From NCBI GenBank assembly GCA_036229005.1, contig JAZAMN010000043.1:74569-138568 (forward strand): DNA of 64,000 nt, in the 5' to 3' direction. The notes under the pieces are model-generated. The model was given only the letters and a program-made list of their open reading frames with translations, was not told the DNA's origin and did not search any database. Positions 1 through 9,168 of the stretch are shown in pieces. The stretch's first letter is position 1. Every line of letters starts with the position of its first letter. This DNA comes from Myxococcota bacterium. GTDB lineage: Bacteria > Myxococcota_A > UBA796 > CAJQPC01. Made by a program: the position numbers and the translations under genes.

Positions 1-2
1 AG

Positions 3-560
3 GAGGCCTACCTGACCCCGATGCACCGCATCCAGGGGCCGGAGGCGCAGGCGCTGGCCGTCTTCAAGGCCGCCATCGGCGAGCCCGACTGGGAGCCCGA
101 GCAGCTCCGCGCCCTGGTCGGCCGCCTGCACGAGGAGGGCCGCCTGCGCAGCACCACCCGCTTCTCGCTGCTGCACATCATCGCCGCCCACCCCAGGGTG
201 GGGAACTTCGCCGAGGCCGCCCGCATGGTGGGGGAGCAGGAGCTGGCCGCCCTGGACGAGGGCGGGCCCCTGATGGACGCGGACCTGGCGAGCGTGGATC
301 GCCACCGGGGTGTCCTCGCCTTCCTCAAGGGCCACTACGAGGTGGCGCTGGACTACTTTTCCCGGGCGTTGGACCGAGAGCGCTCCGCAGAGAACCTCAG
401 CAACATCCTCTGCACCCTGATCCGGCTCCGCGAGCTCCCCGAAGCCGAGAACCTGCTGGCCCAGATCCGCGCCAGCTACCCCGAGACCCTGGTGGATGAG
501 CTGGACGGCATCATCCGCCGCGACCCCGACCTTGCCCTCCTGCGCACGGAGACCCCATGA
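3..560 (+). CDS. TPR-repeat protein (possibly 5'-truncated at the window edge; first ATG at 21)
   Basis: TPR-like helices HRGVLAFLKGHYEVALDYFSRALDRERSAENLSNILCTLIRLRELPEAENLL. The frame is open back to the window start (EAYLTP-M). The stop overlaps the next ATG (ATGA, 557-560). Confidence 0.75.
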   Translation, partial: EAYLTPMHRIQGPEAQALAVFKAAIGEPDWEPEQLRALVGRLHEEGRLRSTTRFSLLHIIAAHPRVGNFAEAARMVGEQELAALDEGGPLMDADLASVDRHRGVLAFLKGHYEVALDYFSRALDRERSAENLSNILCTLIRLRELPEAENLLAQIRASYPETLVDELDGIIRRDPDLALLRTETP

Positions 561-757
561 CCCTGCAAGCCTTCTTCTTCTGGATCGCGTCGATCTTCCC
601 TGGCGGCCCCACCTCGGAGCGCTGCGAGCAGCCTCAGGTGGAGCTGTGCCCGGTCTCGGCGCCCGTCGAGGTGGAGCAGCAGAAGGAGAAGGAGGCCGGC
701 GGCTTCTGGAGTTGGGTGCTGGGGAACACCCGGCAGGGCATCAGCAACGGAGTCTGA
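557..757 (+). CDS. Small 66-aa peptide with hydrophobic N-terminus, two Cys and C-terminal ISNGV
   Basis: ATGA-coupled to the upstream TPR gene and ends 1 nt before the sigma ATG. Host-like GC3 codon bias. Exactly fills the gap between the two genes. Confidence 0.75.
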   Translation: MTLQAFFFWIASIFPGGPTSERCEQPQVELCPVSAPVEVEQQKEKEAGGFWSWVLGNTRQGISNGV

Positions 758-758
758 G

Positions 759-1370
759 ATGACGGGACTGCAAGACCAGCTCCGGGCTCTCCTCTCCGAC
801 AGGAACACCCCCGAGACCCGGGCTTTCTTCGAGAAGCTGCTTGGCTACATCGACCGGCGCGCACGCACCCTCTGGCGCACCCGCTACCCCGACCTGCTGC
901 AGGAGTCGCAGGTCGAGGAGGTCGTCGGCGAGGTCCTCAAGCGCCTGGTCACCGGCGCGCTGGCCTCCTTCCGTGGCGAGAGCCTGGGCGAGCTGATGGC
1001 CTTCGTGCGCACCGTCACCGACCGGGCCGTCTGGCGCTGCGCGCAGCGCGTGATCCGTGAGCGGGACCTGCTGGAGGGGCCCGCCCTGGAGGAGGCCGAG
1101 AGCTGGTTCTCCCACAGCGGACCGGACCTGGAGAGCTTCGAGCACGTGCCCGAGGTGCCCCTGAACGACCAGGACCAGGGCTTCCTGGTGGCGCTGCTGG
1201 AGGCCGAATCCAAGGTCGAGTACAGCCGGCGGCACGGGGTCTCCCGGGCGGCGGTCACCCAGCGCGTGCAGCGCATCCGCAAGCGGATCTCGGCCATGCC
1301 CCAGGACGACCAGAGCGCGGTGGACGCGTGGCTGCACATCCAGGCGCGCAGGCACCTGGCCCAGAGCTGA
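759..1370 (+). CDS. ECF-type sigma70 factor (divergent)
   Basis: Region 2-like QVEEVVGEVLKRL...FRGESLGELMAFVRTVTDR; region 4 HTH LNDQDQGFL...SKVEYSRRHGVSRAAVTQRVQRIRKRI; 203 aa. Confidence 0.75.
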   Translation: MTGLQDQLRALLSDRNTPETRAFFEKLLGYIDRRARTLWRTRYPDLLQESQVEEVVGEVLKRLVTGALASFRGESLGELMAFVRTVTDRAVWRCAQRVIRERDLLEGPALEEAESWFSHSGPDLESFEHVPEVPLNDQDQGFLVALLEAESKVEYSRRHGVSRAAVTQRVQRIRKRISAMPQDDQSAVDAWLHIQARRHLAQS

Positions 1371-1374
1371 GCTC

Positions 1375-1397
1375 GGTCCCACCGTGGGGGGGGGACC
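1375..1397 (+). terminator. Possible hairpin after the sigma gene
   Basis: GGTCCC...GGGACC inverted repeat just after the stop; no U-tract. Confidence 0.3.
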
Positions 1398-1459
1398 GCG
1401 ACATCCCTGCCCCTCTTTGCTCCCGCTCCGCGCCCGATTAGCCTGCGGGCAGGGCAGAT

Positions 1460-2515
1460 ATGGGAGTCGAGATGCTTGGATTCGCTTTGATGCTGGGGGC
1501 CGCTCCGGCCTACCCCTGCGCCAACCTGGTCACCACGGAAGGCGAGCTCGCCACCTCCGACACCCAGGAGGTCCTCTTCGAGAAGGAGGGGGAGGCCTCG
1601 GTGGTCGAATACCGGGTGGCCTACCAAGGGGACGCCGCGGACTTTGGCTGGATCATCGCGCTGGATGGCGAGTTCGAGGCGCTGGTGGACGGCGACGTCG
1701 CCCGCTTCGACACCCTGCGCGAGGCCAGCGATCCCCAGGTCACCTACTGGGAGGACGACACCAGCGACTCCGGTCCCTCCTTGGGGTGCCGTTCCAAGGC
1801 CGGCGGCACCGACCGGGTCAACAGCCTCTCGGACACGGGCAGCGGGAGCTGGGAGGTGGTCGCCGAGGGCTTCTCCGGCACCTACGCCTACACCGTCATC
1901 CAGGCCGACGACCCCGCGGGCCTCTCCGAGTGGCTGACCGAGGCCGGCTTCGACGCCAGCGCCTCCCAGGACACCCTGGACACCTACCTCCAGGAGGGCG
2001 CCCAGATGGTCCTGGTGCGCGTGAACCCCGACTCCGCCGAGACCCCCAGCGAGGGCGCCGAGCTGCCCCCCGTGCGCATCACCTACGCCGGTGAGTTCAG
2101 CTTCCCCGCGCGCATGGCCCGCGAGTCCTCCGCGACCGAGATGGCCACCACCGTCTACGTGCTCGGCGAGCAGCGCGCTCAGGTCAGCGGCTGGGCCCAG
2201 ACCGACGTGGACTACCTGGACGGGAGCGACGTCAGCGCCGAGCAGCTCTGGTACACCAGCCTGCTCGCCCTGGGCCTGAACAAGGGCTACGGCCGCGTCT
2301 ACGCCGGCGAGTACGAGGGCGCCTTCCTCACCCGCTTCGAGACCCGCGCTCCTACCGACGTGCACGACGTGGACCCCGTGTTCACCGTGGACGACGGCGA
2401 CCAGGCCTTCCGCGCCAGCATCGACATCTGGGGCGCCGCGCCCAGCTCCGAGGGCTGGATGCTCCTGCCGCTGCTGGGCCTGGGCCTGGGCCTGATGCGT
2501 CGTCGCCGCGCCTGA
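1460..2515 (+). CDS. DUF2330-like secreted protein with C-terminal TM + poly-Arg anchor
   Basis: Signal peptide ending AYPC; YQGDAADFGWII motif; L.EWL...GF, F.FP.RM and FLTRF motifs; C-terminus WMLLPLLGLGLGLMRRRRA. Confidence 0.75.
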   Translation: MGVEMLGFALMLGAAPAYPCANLVTTEGELATSDTQEVLFEKEGEASVVEYRVAYQGDAADFGWIIALDGEFEALVDGDVARFDTLREASDPQVTYWEDDTSDSGPSLGCRSKAGGTDRVNSLSDTGSGSWEVVAEGFSGTYAYTVIQADDPAGLSEWLTEAGFDASASQDTLDTYLQEGAQMVLVRVNPDSAETPSEGAELPPVRITYAGEFSFPARMARESSATEMATTVYVLGEQRAQVSGWAQTDVDYLDGSDVSAEQLWYTSLLALGLNKGYGRVYAGEYEGAFLTRFETRAPTDVHDVDPVFTVDDGDQAFRASIDIWGAAPSSEGWMLLPLLGLGLGLMRRRRA

Positions 2516-4043: not shown

Positions 4044-4059
4044 TGGCCCGATGCTTGCA
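4044..4059 (+). promoter_or_regulatory. Sigma54 (-24/-12) promoter of the gsp operon
   Basis: TGGCCCG-ATGC-TTGCA vs consensus TGGCACG-N4-TTGCW; GG-N10-GC spacing exact; about 50 nt before the gspC ATG. Confidence 0.75.
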
Positions 4060-4107
4060 GGACGGGGGCTGAGAGCCCCCCTGTGGGCATGGAGACTGGC
4101 AAAAGCC

Positions 4108-5064
4108 ATGCGAGAGCATCTTTCCGACAAGCGGGTCTGGATCGGAGCCGGGGTCATCGCCCTCGCGTCCTTTGCAGCCGCCGCTGGCCTGAACCTGGTG
4201 GTGATCAAGCCCAAGCTTGCCCTCCCGGACGACGCCGAGCTCCCCAGCGTGGGGGAGTTCGTCGCGGACGCGGGGTCGGATGGGCCGGACATCGAGGACG
4301 GCGGGCGCGCCCCCGCGCCGCGGCCCCGAGCCACCAGCGAGAGCCGCTTTCTGGACATCATCGTCAAGGGCAACATCTTCGACAGCTCCAAGGTCGGGCA
4401 GGAGCCCGAGGCCGAGCTGATCGACGATGGCAGCGGTCGCAAGACCAAGCTGGACCTGGTCCTCATCGCCACCATGGTGGCCGAGCCCGCGCAGTTCTCC
4501 TCTGCCCTGATCTCAGGAAAGGGCAAGGACGACCGGGCCTTTGGTTATGGCGTCGAAGACGAGATCATGGGCGCCACCATCCTGGAGATCCAGCAGAAGG
4601 CGGTCAAGCTCGAGGTCAACGGCGAGGTCGAGTGGCTCTACATGGACCCGGGTGCCGTCAAGGAGCCCAAGGCGGCCACGGCCTCCAATGACCGCAGCCT
4701 GCTCCGGGACGACGACGCCGAGGACGGCATCACCGAGTCCGGCGGCAAGATCATCGTCGAGCGCCGGGTCGTGGACGAGGCCCTGGCCAACGTCGAGACC
4801 CTGGCCACCAAGATGCGGGTCGTGCCCCACAAGGGCGCCGACGGCCAGATCGACGGCTACCGCCTGAGCGCAATCCGCCGCGGCAGCCTCTTCGACAAGC
4901 TGGGCATCAAGAACGGGGACGTCGTGCACGGCGTCAACGGCATGCCCCTCACCAGCACCGACGGTGCCTTCCAAGCCTTCCAGACGCTGCAGAGCGAGAG
5001 CGCCTTCACCTTCGAGGTGACCCGCCGCAACCAGCGCCAGACCTTTGAGTACGAGGTCCGCTGA
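4108..5064 (+). CDS. gspC: Type II secretion protein C (PDZ-type)
   Basis: N-terminal TM, HR domain (LVLIATMVAEPAQFSSALI), C-terminal PDZ (GYRLSAIRRGSLFDKLGIKNGDVVHGVNG); first gene of the gsp operon. Confidence 0.9.
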   Translation: MREHLSDKRVWIGAGVIALASFAAAAGLNLVVIKPKLALPDDAELPSVGEFVADAGSDGPDIEDGGRAPAPRPRATSESRFLDIIVKGNIFDSSKVGQEPEAELIDDGSGRKTKLDLVLIATMVAEPAQFSSALISGKGKDDRAFGYGVEDEIMGATILEIQQKAVKLEVNGEVEWLYMDPGAVKEPKAATASNDRSLLRDDDAEDGITESGGKIIVERRVVDEALANVETLATKMRVVPHKGADGQIDGYRLSAIRRGSLFDKLGIKNGDVVHGVNGMPLTSTDGAFQAFQTLQSESAFTFEVTRRNQRQTFEYEVR

Positions 5065-5098
5065 GCCCCTGGCTCAGGACCCCCGCAGGAGCAGAACC

Positions 5099-7465
5099 TT
5101 GCAGAACCTCTCGCAGATTTCCCGTCGCTTGGGCCTGGGTGCCTTCCTGGCGCTCACCGGTCTGGCCCTCCCCGGGGCCGCCTTCGCCCAGGACAAGGAC
5201 CTGGACGACTCCCGGAACAAGCCCCCGTGCGCGACGCCGGCCACGGTGACCCTGGACTACGTCGAGTACGACGTCCAGGAGCTGGTCAAGTACATGGCCG
5301 AGACCTCCTGCCGGAACCTGATCCTGGGCGGTGACGAGCTCAAGGGCAAGGTCACCATCATCAGCCACAAGCCGGTGCCCTACTGGAGCGCCTTCGCGGC
5401 CATGGAGTCCGCGCTGGCCACCGCCGGCTACACCATGGTCGAGGTCGGCGGGACCTACAAGGTGCTCCCCACCAGCGAGGCCGCGCAGGCCCCCGTGGCC
5501 GTGTACGAGGGCACCACCATCCCGGCCACGGACCGGGTGGTCACCCAGATCTTCCAGCTCGACAACGTGCAGGTCTCGGACATCTCCTCCATCGCCAAGG
5601 AGATGGCCGGCCCCAAGGCCAAGATCATCGCCTACGTGCCCACCAACACGCTGATCGTGACCGACTCGGCCTACAACATCCGCCGCATGTGGAAGGTGGT
5701 CGGCCAGCTCGACGTCGAGGCGCCCAAGTCCGAGATCCACGTCGTCCAGATCAAGAACGCCACCGCGAGCGAGATCAAGACGCTGATCGAGACCATCTAC
5801 GGCACCTCCGAGAACGAGAGCAGCAGCAGCACCACCACCAGCAGCAGCACCAGCAACTCGGCCGCTGCTCGCCGTCGCCGCCGCCGGAACCGGGACGCCG
5901 CCGCCGCCGCCTCCACCGAGGCCTCCGCCTCCAACGTGGGCAAGCAGGGCAGCTACATCGAGAAGATCGTCGCGGACGACCGCACCAACCGCCTGATCAT
6001 CCTGGCCAACGACGCGGCCATGGAGAAGGTGCAGGAGCTGATCGACGAGCTCGACGCCGACGTGGACCCCGCCAACCGGGCCAAGATCCACGTGGTCTAC
6101 CTGGAGCACGCCAAGGCCGAGGACGTCGCCTCCACCCTGGCCGCCCTCTCCCAGGGCAGCAGCAACAACGCCACCACCCGGCGCACCACCCAGACCGCCC
6201 GGAACGGCCGCACCATCCCGCAGCCCGACGCCGCGGCCGAGGGCAGCCCCAGCGTCACCGCCCTGCTGGACGACGACGTCCGCATCACCGCGGATGAGAA
6301 CACCAACAGCCTGGTGATCGTGGCCTCCCCCGAGGCCTTCCGCATCCTCAAGAACGTCATCGACCAGCTCGACATCCGCCGCAAGCAGGTGTTCGTCGAG
6401 GTCGTCATCATGGAGATGGCCACCGACGACAGCACCGACCTGGGCCTGAGCTACCACACCGGCATCCCCGGGGACTCCGCGACCACCGTCCTGTCCTCGC
6501 AGATGGGGCCCAGCTCGCTGGGTGTGAGCACGGACCTGCTGTCCGGCGTTGCGATGGGCGTGTTCGGCGACACCATCCCCGTCACCGTCGACGGAACCAG
6601 CGTGGATCTGCCCGCCTTCGGTGTGGTCGTGAACGCCCTGCAGGCCAACTCGCAGGTCAACATCCTCTCCACGCCCAACATCATGACCCTGGACAACGAG
6701 GAGGCGGAGATCGTCGTCGGTCGCAACGTGCCCTTCCCCACCTCCCAGGGCCGCGACTCGAACAACAACCCCATCATCTCGTTCACCCGCGAGGACGTGG
6801 CCATCACGCTGCGCGTGACCCCCCAGATCAACGAGTCCGACTACGTCACCCTCGAGGTCTACCAGGAGGTCACCGAGATCGAGGACAGCGCGTCTTCGTC
6901 CAGCTCCGACGTCACCCTGTCGGGCGGCCCCACGACCTCCAAGCGCACGGCCGAGACCACCGTGCTGGTCCGGGACAACCAGACCGTGGTGATCGGCGGA
7001 CTGATGTCCTCGACGGACTCCGAGATCGAGACCAAGGTGCCGCTGCTGGGCGACCTGCCCCTGATCGGTGTGCTCTTCCGTTCGACCTCCAAGAGCTCCC
7101 GCAAGACCAACCTGCTGATCTTCCTGACCCCCCACGTGATCGACGATCCCGGGGATCTGGAGGAGGTCTACCGGGTCAAGGTGGCCCAGCGCGAGGAGTT
7201 CCTGCGCCGCTTCTACGGCAAGTCCGAGCTGGAGCAGGCCCAGGCCCTGGACGAGCTGCTCTCCTACTCGATGAACATCATCGATGACCCCAGCGGGCCC
7301 CGCTACTCGGCCACCTTCACCGACGAGGACGGCACCGAGACCTACGTGAACGGCGGCGCGGAGGGCGAGGAGGCCGATGCGGCCCAGGACACCGAGATGC
7401 GCACCGCCGGGGACCCCATCCCCCCCGCTGATGTCGACCCTGACGCCCAGCCCGAGGACCTCTGA
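5099..7465 (+). CDS. gspD: Type II secretion secretin D
   Basis: N-domain repeats (TNTLIVTD, ADDRTNRLII, ADENTNSLVI); QVFVEVVIME; NILSTPNIMTLDNEEAEIVVG; KVPLLGDLPLIG.LFRS. TTG start after AGGAG. Confidence 0.95.
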   Translation: MQNLSQISRRLGLGAFLALTGLALPGAAFAQDKDLDDSRNKPPCATPATVTLDYVEYDVQELVKYMAETSCRNLILGGDELKGKVTIISHKPVPYWSAFAAMESALATAGYTMVEVGGTYKVLPTSEAAQAPVAVYEGTTIPATDRVVTQIFQLDNVQVSDISSIAKEMAGPKAKIIAYVPTNTLIVTDSAYNIRRMWKVVGQLDVEAPKSEIHVVQIKNATASEIKTLIETIYGTSENESSSSTTTSSSTSNSAAARRRRRRNRDAAAAASTEASASNVGKQGSYIEKIVADDRTNRLIILANDAAMEKVQELIDELDADVDPANRAKIHVVYLEHAKAEDVASTLAALSQGSSNNATTRRTTQTARNGRTIPQPDAAAEGSPSVTALLDDDVRITADENTNSLVIVASPEAFRILKNVIDQLDIRRKQVFVEVVIMEMATDDSTDLGLSYHTGIPGDSATTVLSSQMGPSSLGVSTDLLSGVAMGVFGDTIPVTVDGTSVDLPAFGVVVNALQANSQVNILSTPNIMTLDNEEAEIVVGRNVPFPTSQGRDSNNNPIISFTREDVAITLRVTPQINESDYVTLEVYQEVTEIEDSASSSSSDVTLSGGPTTSKRTAETTVLVRDNQTVVIGGLMSSTDSEIETKVPLLGDLPLIGVLFRSTSKSSRKTNLLIFLTPHVIDDPGDLEEVYRVKVAQREEFLRRFYGKSELEQAQALDELLSYSMNIIDDPSGPRYSATFTDEDGTETYVNGGAEGEEADAAQDTEMRTAGDPIPPADVDPDAQPEDL

Positions 7466-9168
7466 TGGCCATCCGCCGCCGCTCCCTGGACGAAGTCCTG
7501 CAGGACCGGGGCCTGGCCCCCGAGCTGCTCGCCGACGCCCGCAAGACCGCTGAGAAGACCGGCTCCAGCCTGCTCGAGACCGTGCAGCGGGGCGAGGCCT
7601 CCCAGCTCGCCGTGACCCGGGGCCTCGCGGACCTGACCGGCCTGCGCGTGCTGGAGACCATCGACCTGGAGCGCATCGACATCGAGCTGGTGCGGCGCAT
7701 CCCCCTGGGCCTGGCCCGCGAGCAGCAGATCCTGCCCCTGTGGATCGAGGACGACGGCCGCGTGCTGGCTGGCATCGCGTCCCCGAGCTGCCTGCCCTCC
7801 GCCGACGACATGCGCGTGGTGCTCAAGCGCCCCATCGACCCGGTGCTGGTGCCGGCGGATGTCCTCAAGGACGCCATCAACAAGAGCTTCGACCGCGCGG
7901 CCCGCTCGGCCTCCGCCGTCATGTCCGAGATCGAGGAGGAGCAGGAGGACGACCTGGCCGGGGACCTGTCCCTGGAAGAGGACATCCTGGATGACCCCAA
8001 CCAGGCCCCCATCATCCGCTTCGTGAACACGCTGCTCACGCAGGCGATCAAGGACCGGGCCTCGGACATCCACATCGAGCCCTTCGAGAAGGAGCTGCTG
8101 GTCCGCTTCCGGATCGACGGCGTGCTCTACGAGATCGTGAAGCCGCCGCCCCGGCTGCAGGCCTCCATCGTCAGCCGCATCAAGATCATGGCCGGCCTGA
8201 ACATCGCCGAGAAGCGCATCCCCCAGGACGGCCGCATCCGCATCCGCATGGCCGGCCGCGAGGTCGATCTGCGCGTGAGCACGCTCCCCGTGCGCTACGG
8301 CGAGCGCGTCGTCATGCGTATCCTGGAGAAGGGTCAGGTCTTCTCCCTGGAGCGCGTGGGCATGTCCCAGGAGAACCTGGAGGTCTTCCGCGAGTACATC
8401 CGGCGGCCCCACGGCATCATCCTGGTCACCGGCCCCACGGGCTCTGGTAAGACCACCACGCTCTACTCGGCGCTGGCGGAGATCAACCGCCCGGACCTGA
8501 ACATCCTCACCATCGAGGACCCCATCGAGTACGAGCTGCGCGGCATCGGCCAGACGCAGGTCAACCCCAAGATCGACCTGACCTTCGCCAGCGTGTTGCG
8601 CGCCCACCTGCGTCAGGACCCGGACGTCATCCTGGTCGGTGAGACCCGTGACAAGGAGACCGCGGACAACGCCGTCCAGGCCTCGCTCACCGGTCACCTG
8701 GTGTTCTCCACCCTGCACACCAACGACTCCCCCGGCGCCTTCCCCCGCCTCACCGATATGGGCGTCGAGCCCTTCCTGGTCGCCAGCTCCCTGCTGATGA
8801 TCCTGGCCCAGCGCCTGGTCCGCCGGCTCTGCCCCGAGTGCAAGACCCCCTACGAGCCCCTGGACGGGGAGCTCGCCGATCTGGGCCTGACCCGCGCGGA
8901 CGTCGCCGGACGCACGGTCTACAAGGCCTGCGGCTGCGATGTGTGCCTCAAGACCGGGTACAAGGGCCGTACCGGCATCTACGAGCTGCTGGAGGTGACC
9001 GACGCCATCCGCAACGCCGTGATGCAGGAGGCCGACGGCTCGGCCATCAAGCGCGTGGCGACCGAGGGGGGCATGAAGACCCTCCGCGACGACGGCATCC
9101 GCAAGGTCTTCGAGGGTGAGACCACCTTCGAGGAGGTCATGCGCGTCACCAGCGAGGACTCCCGCTAG
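7465..9168 (+). CDS. gspE: Type II secretion ATPase E
   Basis: ASDIHIEP; Walker A GPTGSGKTTT; LRQDPDVILVGE; LTGHLVFSTLH; CxxC...CxxC. Confidence 0.97.
   Translation: MAIRRRSLDEVLQDRGLAPELLADARKTAEKTGSSLLETVQRGEASQLAVTRGLADLTGLRVLETIDLERIDIELVRRIPLGLAREQQILPLWIEDDGRVLAGIASPSCLPSADDMRVVLKRPIDPVLVPADVLKDAINKSFDRAARSASAVMSEIEEEQEDDLAGDLSLEEDILDDPNQAPIIRFVNTLLTQAIKDRASDIHIEPFEKELLVRFRIDGVLYEIVKPPPRLQASIVSRIKIMAGLNIAEKRIPQDGRIRIRMAGREVDLRVSTLPVRYGERVVMRILEKGQVFSLERVGMSQENLEVFREYIRRPHGIILVTGPTGSGKTTTLYSALAEINRPDLNILTIEDPIEYELRGIGQTQVNPKIDLTFASVLRAHLRQDPDVILVGETRDKETADNAVQASLTGHLVFSTLHTNDSPGAFPRLTDMGVEPFLVASSLLMILAQRLVRRLCPECKTPYEPLDGELADLGLTRADVAGRTVYKACGCDVCLKTGYKGRTGIYELLEVTDAIRNAVMQEADGSAIKRVATEGGMKTLRDDGIRKVFEGETTFEEVMRVTSEDSR

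What the first reader, a model, noticed from the sequence alone, without database searches (positions are those of the whole stretch)
1..1370. TPR protein - small peptide (ending ISNGV) - ECF sigma: candidate peptide-signalling module
Seen: three genes are tightly coupled (ATGA overlap at 557-560, 1-nt gap at 758). They encode a cytoplasmic-looking TPR protein, a 66-aa peptide and a divergent ECF sigma factor. The peptide has a hydrophobic N-terminus, a C-x7-C pair, an acidic linker and an aromatic tail GGFWSWVLGNTRQGISNGV. No membrane anti-sigma gene follows; the cassette ends in a hairpin. Known: in Firmicutes RRNPP systems, a TPR receptor binds a short C-terminal fragment of an adjacent exported pro-peptide. 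Inference: this could be an analogous peptide/TPR circuit in a diderm bacterium that outputs through a sigma factor, or a precursor whose C-terminal Asn-Gly motif is processed. Genes upstream of the window may belong to it.
Basis: partly seen in the sequence, partly recalled or inferred. Interest (0 to 1): 0.8.

Follow-up and report, generated by a model that had tools for sequence, protein, structure and literature searches.

The report
Peptide-TPR switch on a myxobacterial sigma
A three-gene operon conserved across uncultured Myxococcota encodes a sigma factor, a TPR protein and a small, likely exported precursor whose five-residue tail changes in step with the TPR's predicted binding groove, so it probably works as a Gram-positive-style peptide switch on a sigma factor in a Gram-negative lineage.

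Summary
The TPR gene starts 52 nt before the window (203 aa). The TPR / small ORF / sigma cassette recurs across the order: 30 of 30 sigma loci and 76 of 78 TPR loci inspected carry the small ORF. It has a hydrophobic N-terminus, a hypervariable linker and the tail [ILF]-x-[NVD]-G-[FILVY]-stop. Tail Ser(-4) pairs with TPR Glu148 without exception in 137 pairs (6 changes each on the tree; sign test not significant), and 148 is a TPR groove position. Distant relatives have classical signal peptides with an internal or tandemly repeated motif, and linker cysteines come in pairs, so the precursor is likely exported and cut. A promoter-like CGTTAAC-N17/18-CAC precedes 75 of 79 cassettes and some envelope genes, but is degenerate and not enriched in this genome. 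Best model: the released peptide returns, binds the TPR and frees the sigma. TPR-sigma contact, cleavage and import are untested; co-folding was unavailable. It works like RRNPP but is not a member (receptor 203 aa, no homology found). The scan noted this cassette before on another genome (e1-7686103).

The parts
1..560 (+). 3' part of the TPR protein gene (203 aa; starts 52 nt before the window). Predicted cytoplasmic peptide receptor. Groove residues S115, R118, H119, V122, E148, N152. A degenerate copy of the family promoter (CCTTAAC, no CAC) lies about 110 nt before the window.
   Evidence: (pLDDT 89.5)
557..757 (+). Small precursor ORF, 66 aa
557..601 (+). Uncharged hydrophobic N-terminal segment (aa 1-15), likely export signal or anchor
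   Evidence: classical signal peptides in distant homologues
623..649 (+). C23-x7-C31 pair in the hypervariable linker, likely a disulfide
740..754 (+). Conserved C-terminal pentapeptide ISNGV, predicted TPR ligand
759..1370 (+). Divergent ECF-type sigma factor (sigma2 + sigma4, 203 aa)
1374..1398 (+). GC hairpin after the sigma gene; not significant, no U-tract

Best explanation
The operon encodes a TPR protein, a small precursor and an ECF-type sigma factor; the precursor is likely exported and cut, its terminal pentapeptide likely returns to the cytoplasm and binds the TPR groove, and the TPR would then release the sigma it is predicted to hold inactive. The freed sigma would transcribe its own operon and a few envelope genes from CGTTAAC-N17/18-C[AT]C promoters, giving positive feedback. 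Shown: synteny, translational coupling, tail conservation, tail-groove covariation, the upstream motif. Inferred with good support: tail binds TPR (~0.85), precursor exported (~0.8), motif read by this sigma (~0.7). Inferred from gene coupling and ECF precedent only: TPR contacts sigma (~0.7). The sign (TPR as anti-sigma, peptide as inducer) and re-import by an Opp/Dpp-type transporter are the weakest steps.
For: Synteny: small ORF with tail upstream of 30 of 30 sigma loci examined (28 by script, L014 and L016 read), TPR upstream in 29 of 30; 76 of 78 TPR loci; 59 of 63 metagenome loci with at least 400 nt after the TPR. Covariation: Ser(-4) with Glu148 in 81 of 81, non-Ser with non-Glu in 53 of 53. 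With three IINEI loci missed by my filter, 0 mismatches in 137, the only one of 203 columns to do so; 6 changes each on the tree. Val(-3) goes with K/R97 and A122 in 11 of 11. APC-MI top peptide-TPR z 10.5 against best peptide-sigma z 5.2. Alignment to consensus TPRs puts E148/N152/C155 at repeat positions 2/6/9 and S115/R118/H119/V122 at 2/5/6/9; these are ligand-contact positions in PMC1261162 (passages). Export: 5 complete precursors in family f8 have basic-hydrophobic-AxA signals (by eye) with internal I-I-[FL]-G-Q-[DE]-R, and there R118 is His and N149 is Ser. One genome outside the class has a lipobox precursor with two tandem S-I-G-N-G-P-L copies. Linker Cys count: 44 with two, 22 with none, 11 with one, of 79; even in 22 of 26 de-replicated rows, p 5e-4. 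Net charge after the hydrophobic segment is never positive. Promoter: score >10 in 75 of 79; relaxed pattern in 121 of 128 against 38 with a wrong spacer. AAC-N17-CAC is kept in four distant loci. In the one split cassette (G045) the motif stays with peptide+sigma, and the relocated TPR has Gly148 matching IYNGF. Two target families score >=12 in 6 of 23 and 8 of 22 cassette-positive genomes against 0 of 7 and 0 of 7 negative; shuffled 0.7%.
Against: Covariation rests on few events: only 3 independent pairs on well-supported branches, sign test p 0.25; the Val(-3) switch is one event. No TPR-sigma covariation stands out (best z 6.6, no clear outlier). Main-clade precursors show no excess of small-x-small cleavage motifs (56 against 58.7 shuffled) and no conserved residue before the pentapeptide. 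Their N-terminus is more amphipathic and F/W-rich than signal-like N-termini of this genome (moment 0.86 against 0.55). ISNGF is shared by 60 of 134 pairs across families, low specificity for kin signalling. In this genome the cassette promoter scores only 6.2 and the motif is not enriched upstream of genes. The exact pattern is no commoner than its reversed control in many relatives. The regulon test is biased: families were picked from motif hits, kin are not independent, and G014 was counted negative though it has the TPR at a contig end. L302 keeps Glu148 beside a 12-codon ORF ending FDNGP.
Confidence: 0.5

Rival explanations
1. Export or envelope monitor. The tail binds the TPR, but as intact precursor that stays in the cytoplasm when export stalls, or as a fragment from the cell's own periplasm. 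It reports envelope state, not cell density.
For: Tail nearly invariant across families; no conserved cleavage site; candidate targets are mostly exported proteins.
Against: Tandem internal copies in G158 and the internal motif in f8 imply excision. Paired cysteines suggest selection acting after export. Tail variants co-evolve with the groove as pherotypes do.
Confidence: 0.23
2. The TPR binds the peptide but acts on some other protein; the sigma is only the transcriptional driver of the operon.
For: No TPR-sigma covariation outlier; one genome has the TPR at a separate locus without the promoter.
Against: TPR and sigma lie within 700 nt in 74 of 78 loci while other neighbours change. No other anti-sigma is encoded. 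A second TPR copy follows the sigma in 9 of 50 loci.
Confidence: 0.12
3. The small protein is a membrane anchor with its tail in the cytoplasm, tethering the TPR (and sigma) to the membrane until proteolysis.
For: Amphipathic, Trp-rich N-terminus without a clear cleavage site.
Against: The hydrophobic run is only about 14 residues, its C-terminal flank is acidic, cysteines are paired, and homologues have cleavable signals or a lipobox.
Confidence: 0.08
4. The small protein is itself a NepR-like anti-sigma and the TPR is an anti-anti-sigma that captures it by the tail.
For: It lies directly upstream of the sigma and is coupled to it; partner switching exists among ECFs (PMC7826278, passages).
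Against: Only the tail is conserved and it covaries with the TPR, not the sigma; export signals in homologues.
Confidence: 0.07

Closest known systems
RRNPP receptor/pro-peptide pairs (Rap-Phr, PlcR-PapR, NprR-NprX, AimR-AimP)
   Same: Adjacent TPR receptor and small precursor with a hydrophobic N-terminus; conserved short C-terminal peptide; groove Asn residues; peptide and pocket covary (PMC10075063, PMC3601965, passages). Repeated peptide copies in one precursor recall AimP/Phr (recalled).
   Different: Receptor is 203 aa with about three repeats and no HTH; a coupled ECF sigma is the likely output; host is a diderm (Myxococcota; T2SS secretin in the window); no RRNPP sequence among the 38 PDB hits at E<=10.
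ECF sigma / anti-sigma operons (sigmaE-RseA, RpoE-NepR-PhyR, ECF42 with TPR extension, DdvS-DdvA)
   Same: Sigma2+sigma4 protein, likely autoregulated AAC-type promoter, candidate envelope regulon, co-encoded regulator.
   Different: No membrane anti-sigma; stand-alone soluble TPR plus exported peptide. None of the 16 TPR mentions in the held (cut) supplement of PMC7826278 describes this arrangement.
PatS/PatX-HetR of cyanobacteria (recalled, no call)
   Same: Pentapeptide signal from a small precursor acting on a cytoplasmic regulator in a diderm.
   Different: HetR is not a TPR, there is no sigma factor, and the motif differs.
Hop/CHIP-type carboxylate-clamp TPR domains
   Same: Three-repeat groove reading a C-terminal tail; Sti1/Hop among fold matches (Z 12.8).
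   Different: Ligand is a dedicated co-encoded exported protein; generic TPR folds tie at this Z.

Membership tests
RRNPP | Propeptide of 10-100 aa | tested here: met
   48-97 aa in 79 cassettes; some distant ones are longer (165 aa)
RRNPP | Propeptide secreted by Sec (or PptAB) | tested here: inconclusive
   No signal predictor available. Classical signals by eye in 5 f8 precursors; main clade lacks an n-region, as do 208 of 245 signal-like N-termini of this genome, and lacks a cleavage-motif excess
RRNPP | Receptor of 250-500 aa | tested here: not met
   203 aa; no relative of 383-2000 aa at E<=1e-8 among 8000 candidates, weak evidence
RRNPP | Receptor has TPRs | tested here: met
   Pfam TPR hits below cut-off; profile matches consensus TPR proteins; TPR superhelix model
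RRNPP | Receptor and propeptide genes adjacent | tested here: met
   76 of 78 loci
RRNPP | Homology to known RRNPP receptors | tested here: inconclusive
   None in PDB sequence search; PlcR Z 12.3 and Rap Z 11.0 tie with unrelated TPRs
RRNPP | Mature peptide is re-imported and binds the receptor | not testable with these tools
   Covariation only; five family-5 solute-binding genes in the genome are not specific
ECF sigma factor | Sigma2 and sigma4 domains only | tested here: met
   Two-domain model; best fold matches are sigma factors (Foldseek E 0.08; Z 10.0-8.3); TIGR02937 in 63 of 79 members at E<=0.05, the window's member below cut-off
ECF sigma factor | Bipartite promoter upstream of own operon | tested here: met
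   75 of 79 cassettes; degenerate in this genome; recognition by this sigma not shown
ECF sigma factor | Co-encoded transmembrane anti-sigma (commonest mode) | tested here: not met
   None in the window; no neighbour family shared by more than 12 of 50 loci
ECF sigma factor | Assignment to a numbered ECF group | not testable with these tools
   Group models not available

The most novel reading that the evidence does not exclude
An independently evolved peptide quorum-sensing system in a Gram-negative phylum: an exported pentapeptide with co-evolving pherotypes (ISNGF, IYNGF, LYVGF, IINEI, IGNGP) is shared between cells and switches a stand-alone TPR anti-sigma, a mode of ECF control not found in the papers searched.
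Probability: 0.35. Interest if true: 0.92.

Novelty: new variant of a known kind. Interest (0 to 1): 0.82.

Why it matters
Peptide signalling through cytoplasmic TPR receptors is described as a Firmicutes trait (PMC10075063, passages). A version in diderm Myxococcota that outputs through an ECF sigma would extend that logic across the cell-envelope divide and add a new way to control a sigma factor. It comes with directly testable parts: a five-residue ligand, a one-residue specificity switch (E148), a predicted promoter and candidate targets, all of which can be rebuilt in a laboratory strain.

Tried and rejected
The search of 50%-identity protein representatives was also unavailable, so range outside Myxococcota is only partly tested. 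Viral contigs: no relative among 54 pattern matches. No relative of the G158-type TPR in metagenomes (599 candidates) or in 60 of its relatives, so the tandem-repeat precursor is a single case. No fused longer TPR form found (weak). Genome scan for orphan ISNG-x ORFs: none. Regulon scan of this genome: no enrichment. Deamidation/Asn-Gly processing as the core mechanism: rejected because Val and Glu variants exist. Terminator: not supported. RNA runs: five short contig pieces in 4 of 4 runs laid cover parts of the TPR and sigma genes and none covers the small ORF; contigs cannot show transcription. Conserved protease or transporter neighbours: none; a family-5 solute-binding gene lies convergently next to the cassette in about 3 of 50 loci of one subclade. 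Literature: searches listed no description of this cassette. I saw passages of PMC10075063, PMC7826278 (plus passages of its supplement, which is cut in storage), PMC12700828 (nothing relevant), PMC1261162 and PMC3601965; all others only as listings. Subscription papers and bioRxiv supplements were not seen.

Full report
Observation. The TPR gene starts 52 nt before the window and encodes 203 aa without a signal sequence; upstream lies a divergent FGE-sulfatase-like gene. The closing hairpin is not better than chance and has no U-tract. Record titles of homologous loci and atlas clusters point to uncultured Myxococcota; many titles carry other or generic names, which I did not resolve.

Conservation. 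The sigma matched 41 of 61 related genomes, nearly always once. All 30 loci fetched had a small ORF with the tail just upstream and 29 had the TPR. A scan of species genomes gave 78 TPR loci: 74 with sigma within 700 nt and 76 with the small ORF. The two exceptions are a second TPR copy after a sigma at a contig end, and a TPR whose genome holds peptide and sigma elsewhere. In metagenomes 59 of 63 loci with enough DNA had the tail, three had an IINEI variant and one a 12-codon ORF. In 301 genomes of the phylum the TPR occurred in 38: 32 in the order, 5 elsewhere in the class, 1 outside it. The precursor is 48-97 aa with about 14 uncharged hydrophobic residues, a Pro/Asp/Ser-rich linker only 19-32% identical to the window's, and the tail [ILF]-x-[NVD]-G-[FILVY]. 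One gene in 5367 of this genome ends this way. My tail filter requires the Gly, so its invariance in the counted set is by construction.

The partners. The model of the first protein is a TPR superhelix (pLDDT 89.5). The third protein has sigma2 and sigma4 domains; its best fold matches are sigma factors and 63 of 79 members hit TIGR02937 weakly. It is a divergent ECF-type sigma.

The tail is likely the TPR's ligand. Ser at -4 goes with Glu148 in 81 of 81 pairs and non-Ser with non-Glu in 53 of 53. Adding three IINEI loci that my filter had missed gives 0 mismatches in 137, unique among 203 columns, with six changes of each trait on the tree. Only three pairs lie on well-supported branches, so the sign test is not significant (p 0.25). 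Val at -3 goes with Lys/Arg97 and Ala122 (one event), and the last residue tracks position 77 loosely. Peptide-TPR coupling (z 10.5) exceeds peptide-sigma (5.2). Registered against consensus TPRs, E148, N152, C155 and S115, R118, H119, V122 fall on repeat positions 2, 5, 6 and 9, which contact ligands in solved TPR complexes (PMC1261162, passages). In family f8 the motif is internal (I-I-[FL]-G-Q-[DE]-R) and the otherwise invariant R118 and N149 become His and Ser. That fits a clamp for the C-terminal carboxylate, though it is one event. One exception is L302, which keeps Glu148 beside a 12-codon ORF ending FDNGP.

The precursor is likely exported. Five complete f8 precursors have textbook signal peptides by eye, and the one cassette outside the class has a lipobox and two tandem S-I-G-N-G-P-L copies; that case is a single genome. 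In the main clade cysteines come in pairs (even in 67 of 79, 42 expected; 22 of 26 after de-replication) and the segment after the hydrophobic run is never net positive. Lack of an N-terminal Lys/Arg is normal for signal-like N-termini here (208 of 245). Against this, no cleavage motif is enriched and the segment is unusually amphipathic. Since the TPR has no signal, an exported tail must be cut and returned, or be read only when export fails.

Promoter and regulon. CGTTAAC-N17/18-CAC, often after a T-tract, precedes 75 of 79 cassettes (trained on the same sequences). A relaxed pattern hits 121 of 128 against 38 with a wrong spacer, and AAC-N17-CAC persists in four distant loci. In the split cassette it stays with peptide and sigma. 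Of 74 exact matches in relatives I fetched 40. Many lie just upstream of exported proteins, including a predicted outer-membrane protein family, M16 peptidases and a small secreted protein that recur in different genera; this inspection had no control. For two such families the motif scored 12 or more in 6 of 23 and 8 of 22 cassette-positive genomes and in 0 of 7 and 0 of 7 negative ones, with selection and kinship bias. In this genome the cassette's own site is degenerate and there is no genome-wide enrichment, although the homologues C52:274776 and C74:5458 carry variants.

Mechanism. I commit to export, cleavage, return, TPR binding and release of the sigma, with positive feedback (0.5). 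The anti-sigma role follows from ECF precedent and tight coupling, not from a test; no TPR-sigma covariation stands out and co-folding was unavailable. The main rival keeps tail-TPR binding but makes it a monitor of the cell's own export or envelope.

Comparison. It works like an RRNPP pair and meets three of the five criteria of PMC10075063. It fails the receptor length, Sec export is inconclusive, and no homology was found, so it is not filed as a member. No ECF group passage seen in PMC7826278 or its held supplement describes it, and nine paper searches listed nothing on it. My reading was set before I saw it; the promoter, regulon, export and distant-homologue results were not in the lines shown.

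Verdict: real, conserved and undescribed in what I could search; a new variant of peptide/TPR signalling with a sigma output; interest 0.82.

Noticed in passing
window 4051-9168: Type II secretion genes gspC, gspD (secretin), gspE; ordinary, supports a diderm host.
   Followed up: partly
window 1460-2515: DUF2330 protein with a signal-like start and a hydrophobic C-terminal tail ending RRRRA, resembling a C-terminal sorting signal (recalled).
   Followed up: no
L236 (G194:C1), L220, L223, L224; 9 of 50 loci: A second TPR copy directly after the sigma in one subclade; keeps R118/N149/N152 but H76 is Gln or Gly. Possible second receptor or antagonist.
   Followed up: partly
L230, L231, L233, L235 (family f8): The sigma has a duplicated sigma2-like N-terminal domain.
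   Followed up: no
L232:2630-3070 (G158): Lipoprotein-type precursor of about 144 aa with two tandem S-I-G-N-G-P-L copies between TPR and sigma; only case found.
   Followed up: partly
L302, between TPR and sigma: Only a 12-codon ATGA-coupled ORF ending FDNGP; possibly a precursor that lost its export signal.
   Followed up: partly
G045: L026 and L237: Split cassette: peptide+sigma keep the promoter motif, and the TPR sits next to a MotA/TolQ-like gene (label by eye) on another contig.
   Followed up: partly
L001:14430-14470 (upstream of the window): Two TTGACA-like repeats 11 nt apart precede the CCTTAAC site in this genus; possibly a replacement promoter or activator site.
   Followed up: no
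L075, L079, L089: Family-5 solute-binding protein gene convergent with the cassette end in one subclade.
   Followed up: partly
genome-wide: Signal-like N-termini in this genome are very short and mostly lack Lys/Arg (208 of 245); about half carry a lipobox-like Cys.
   Followed up: no
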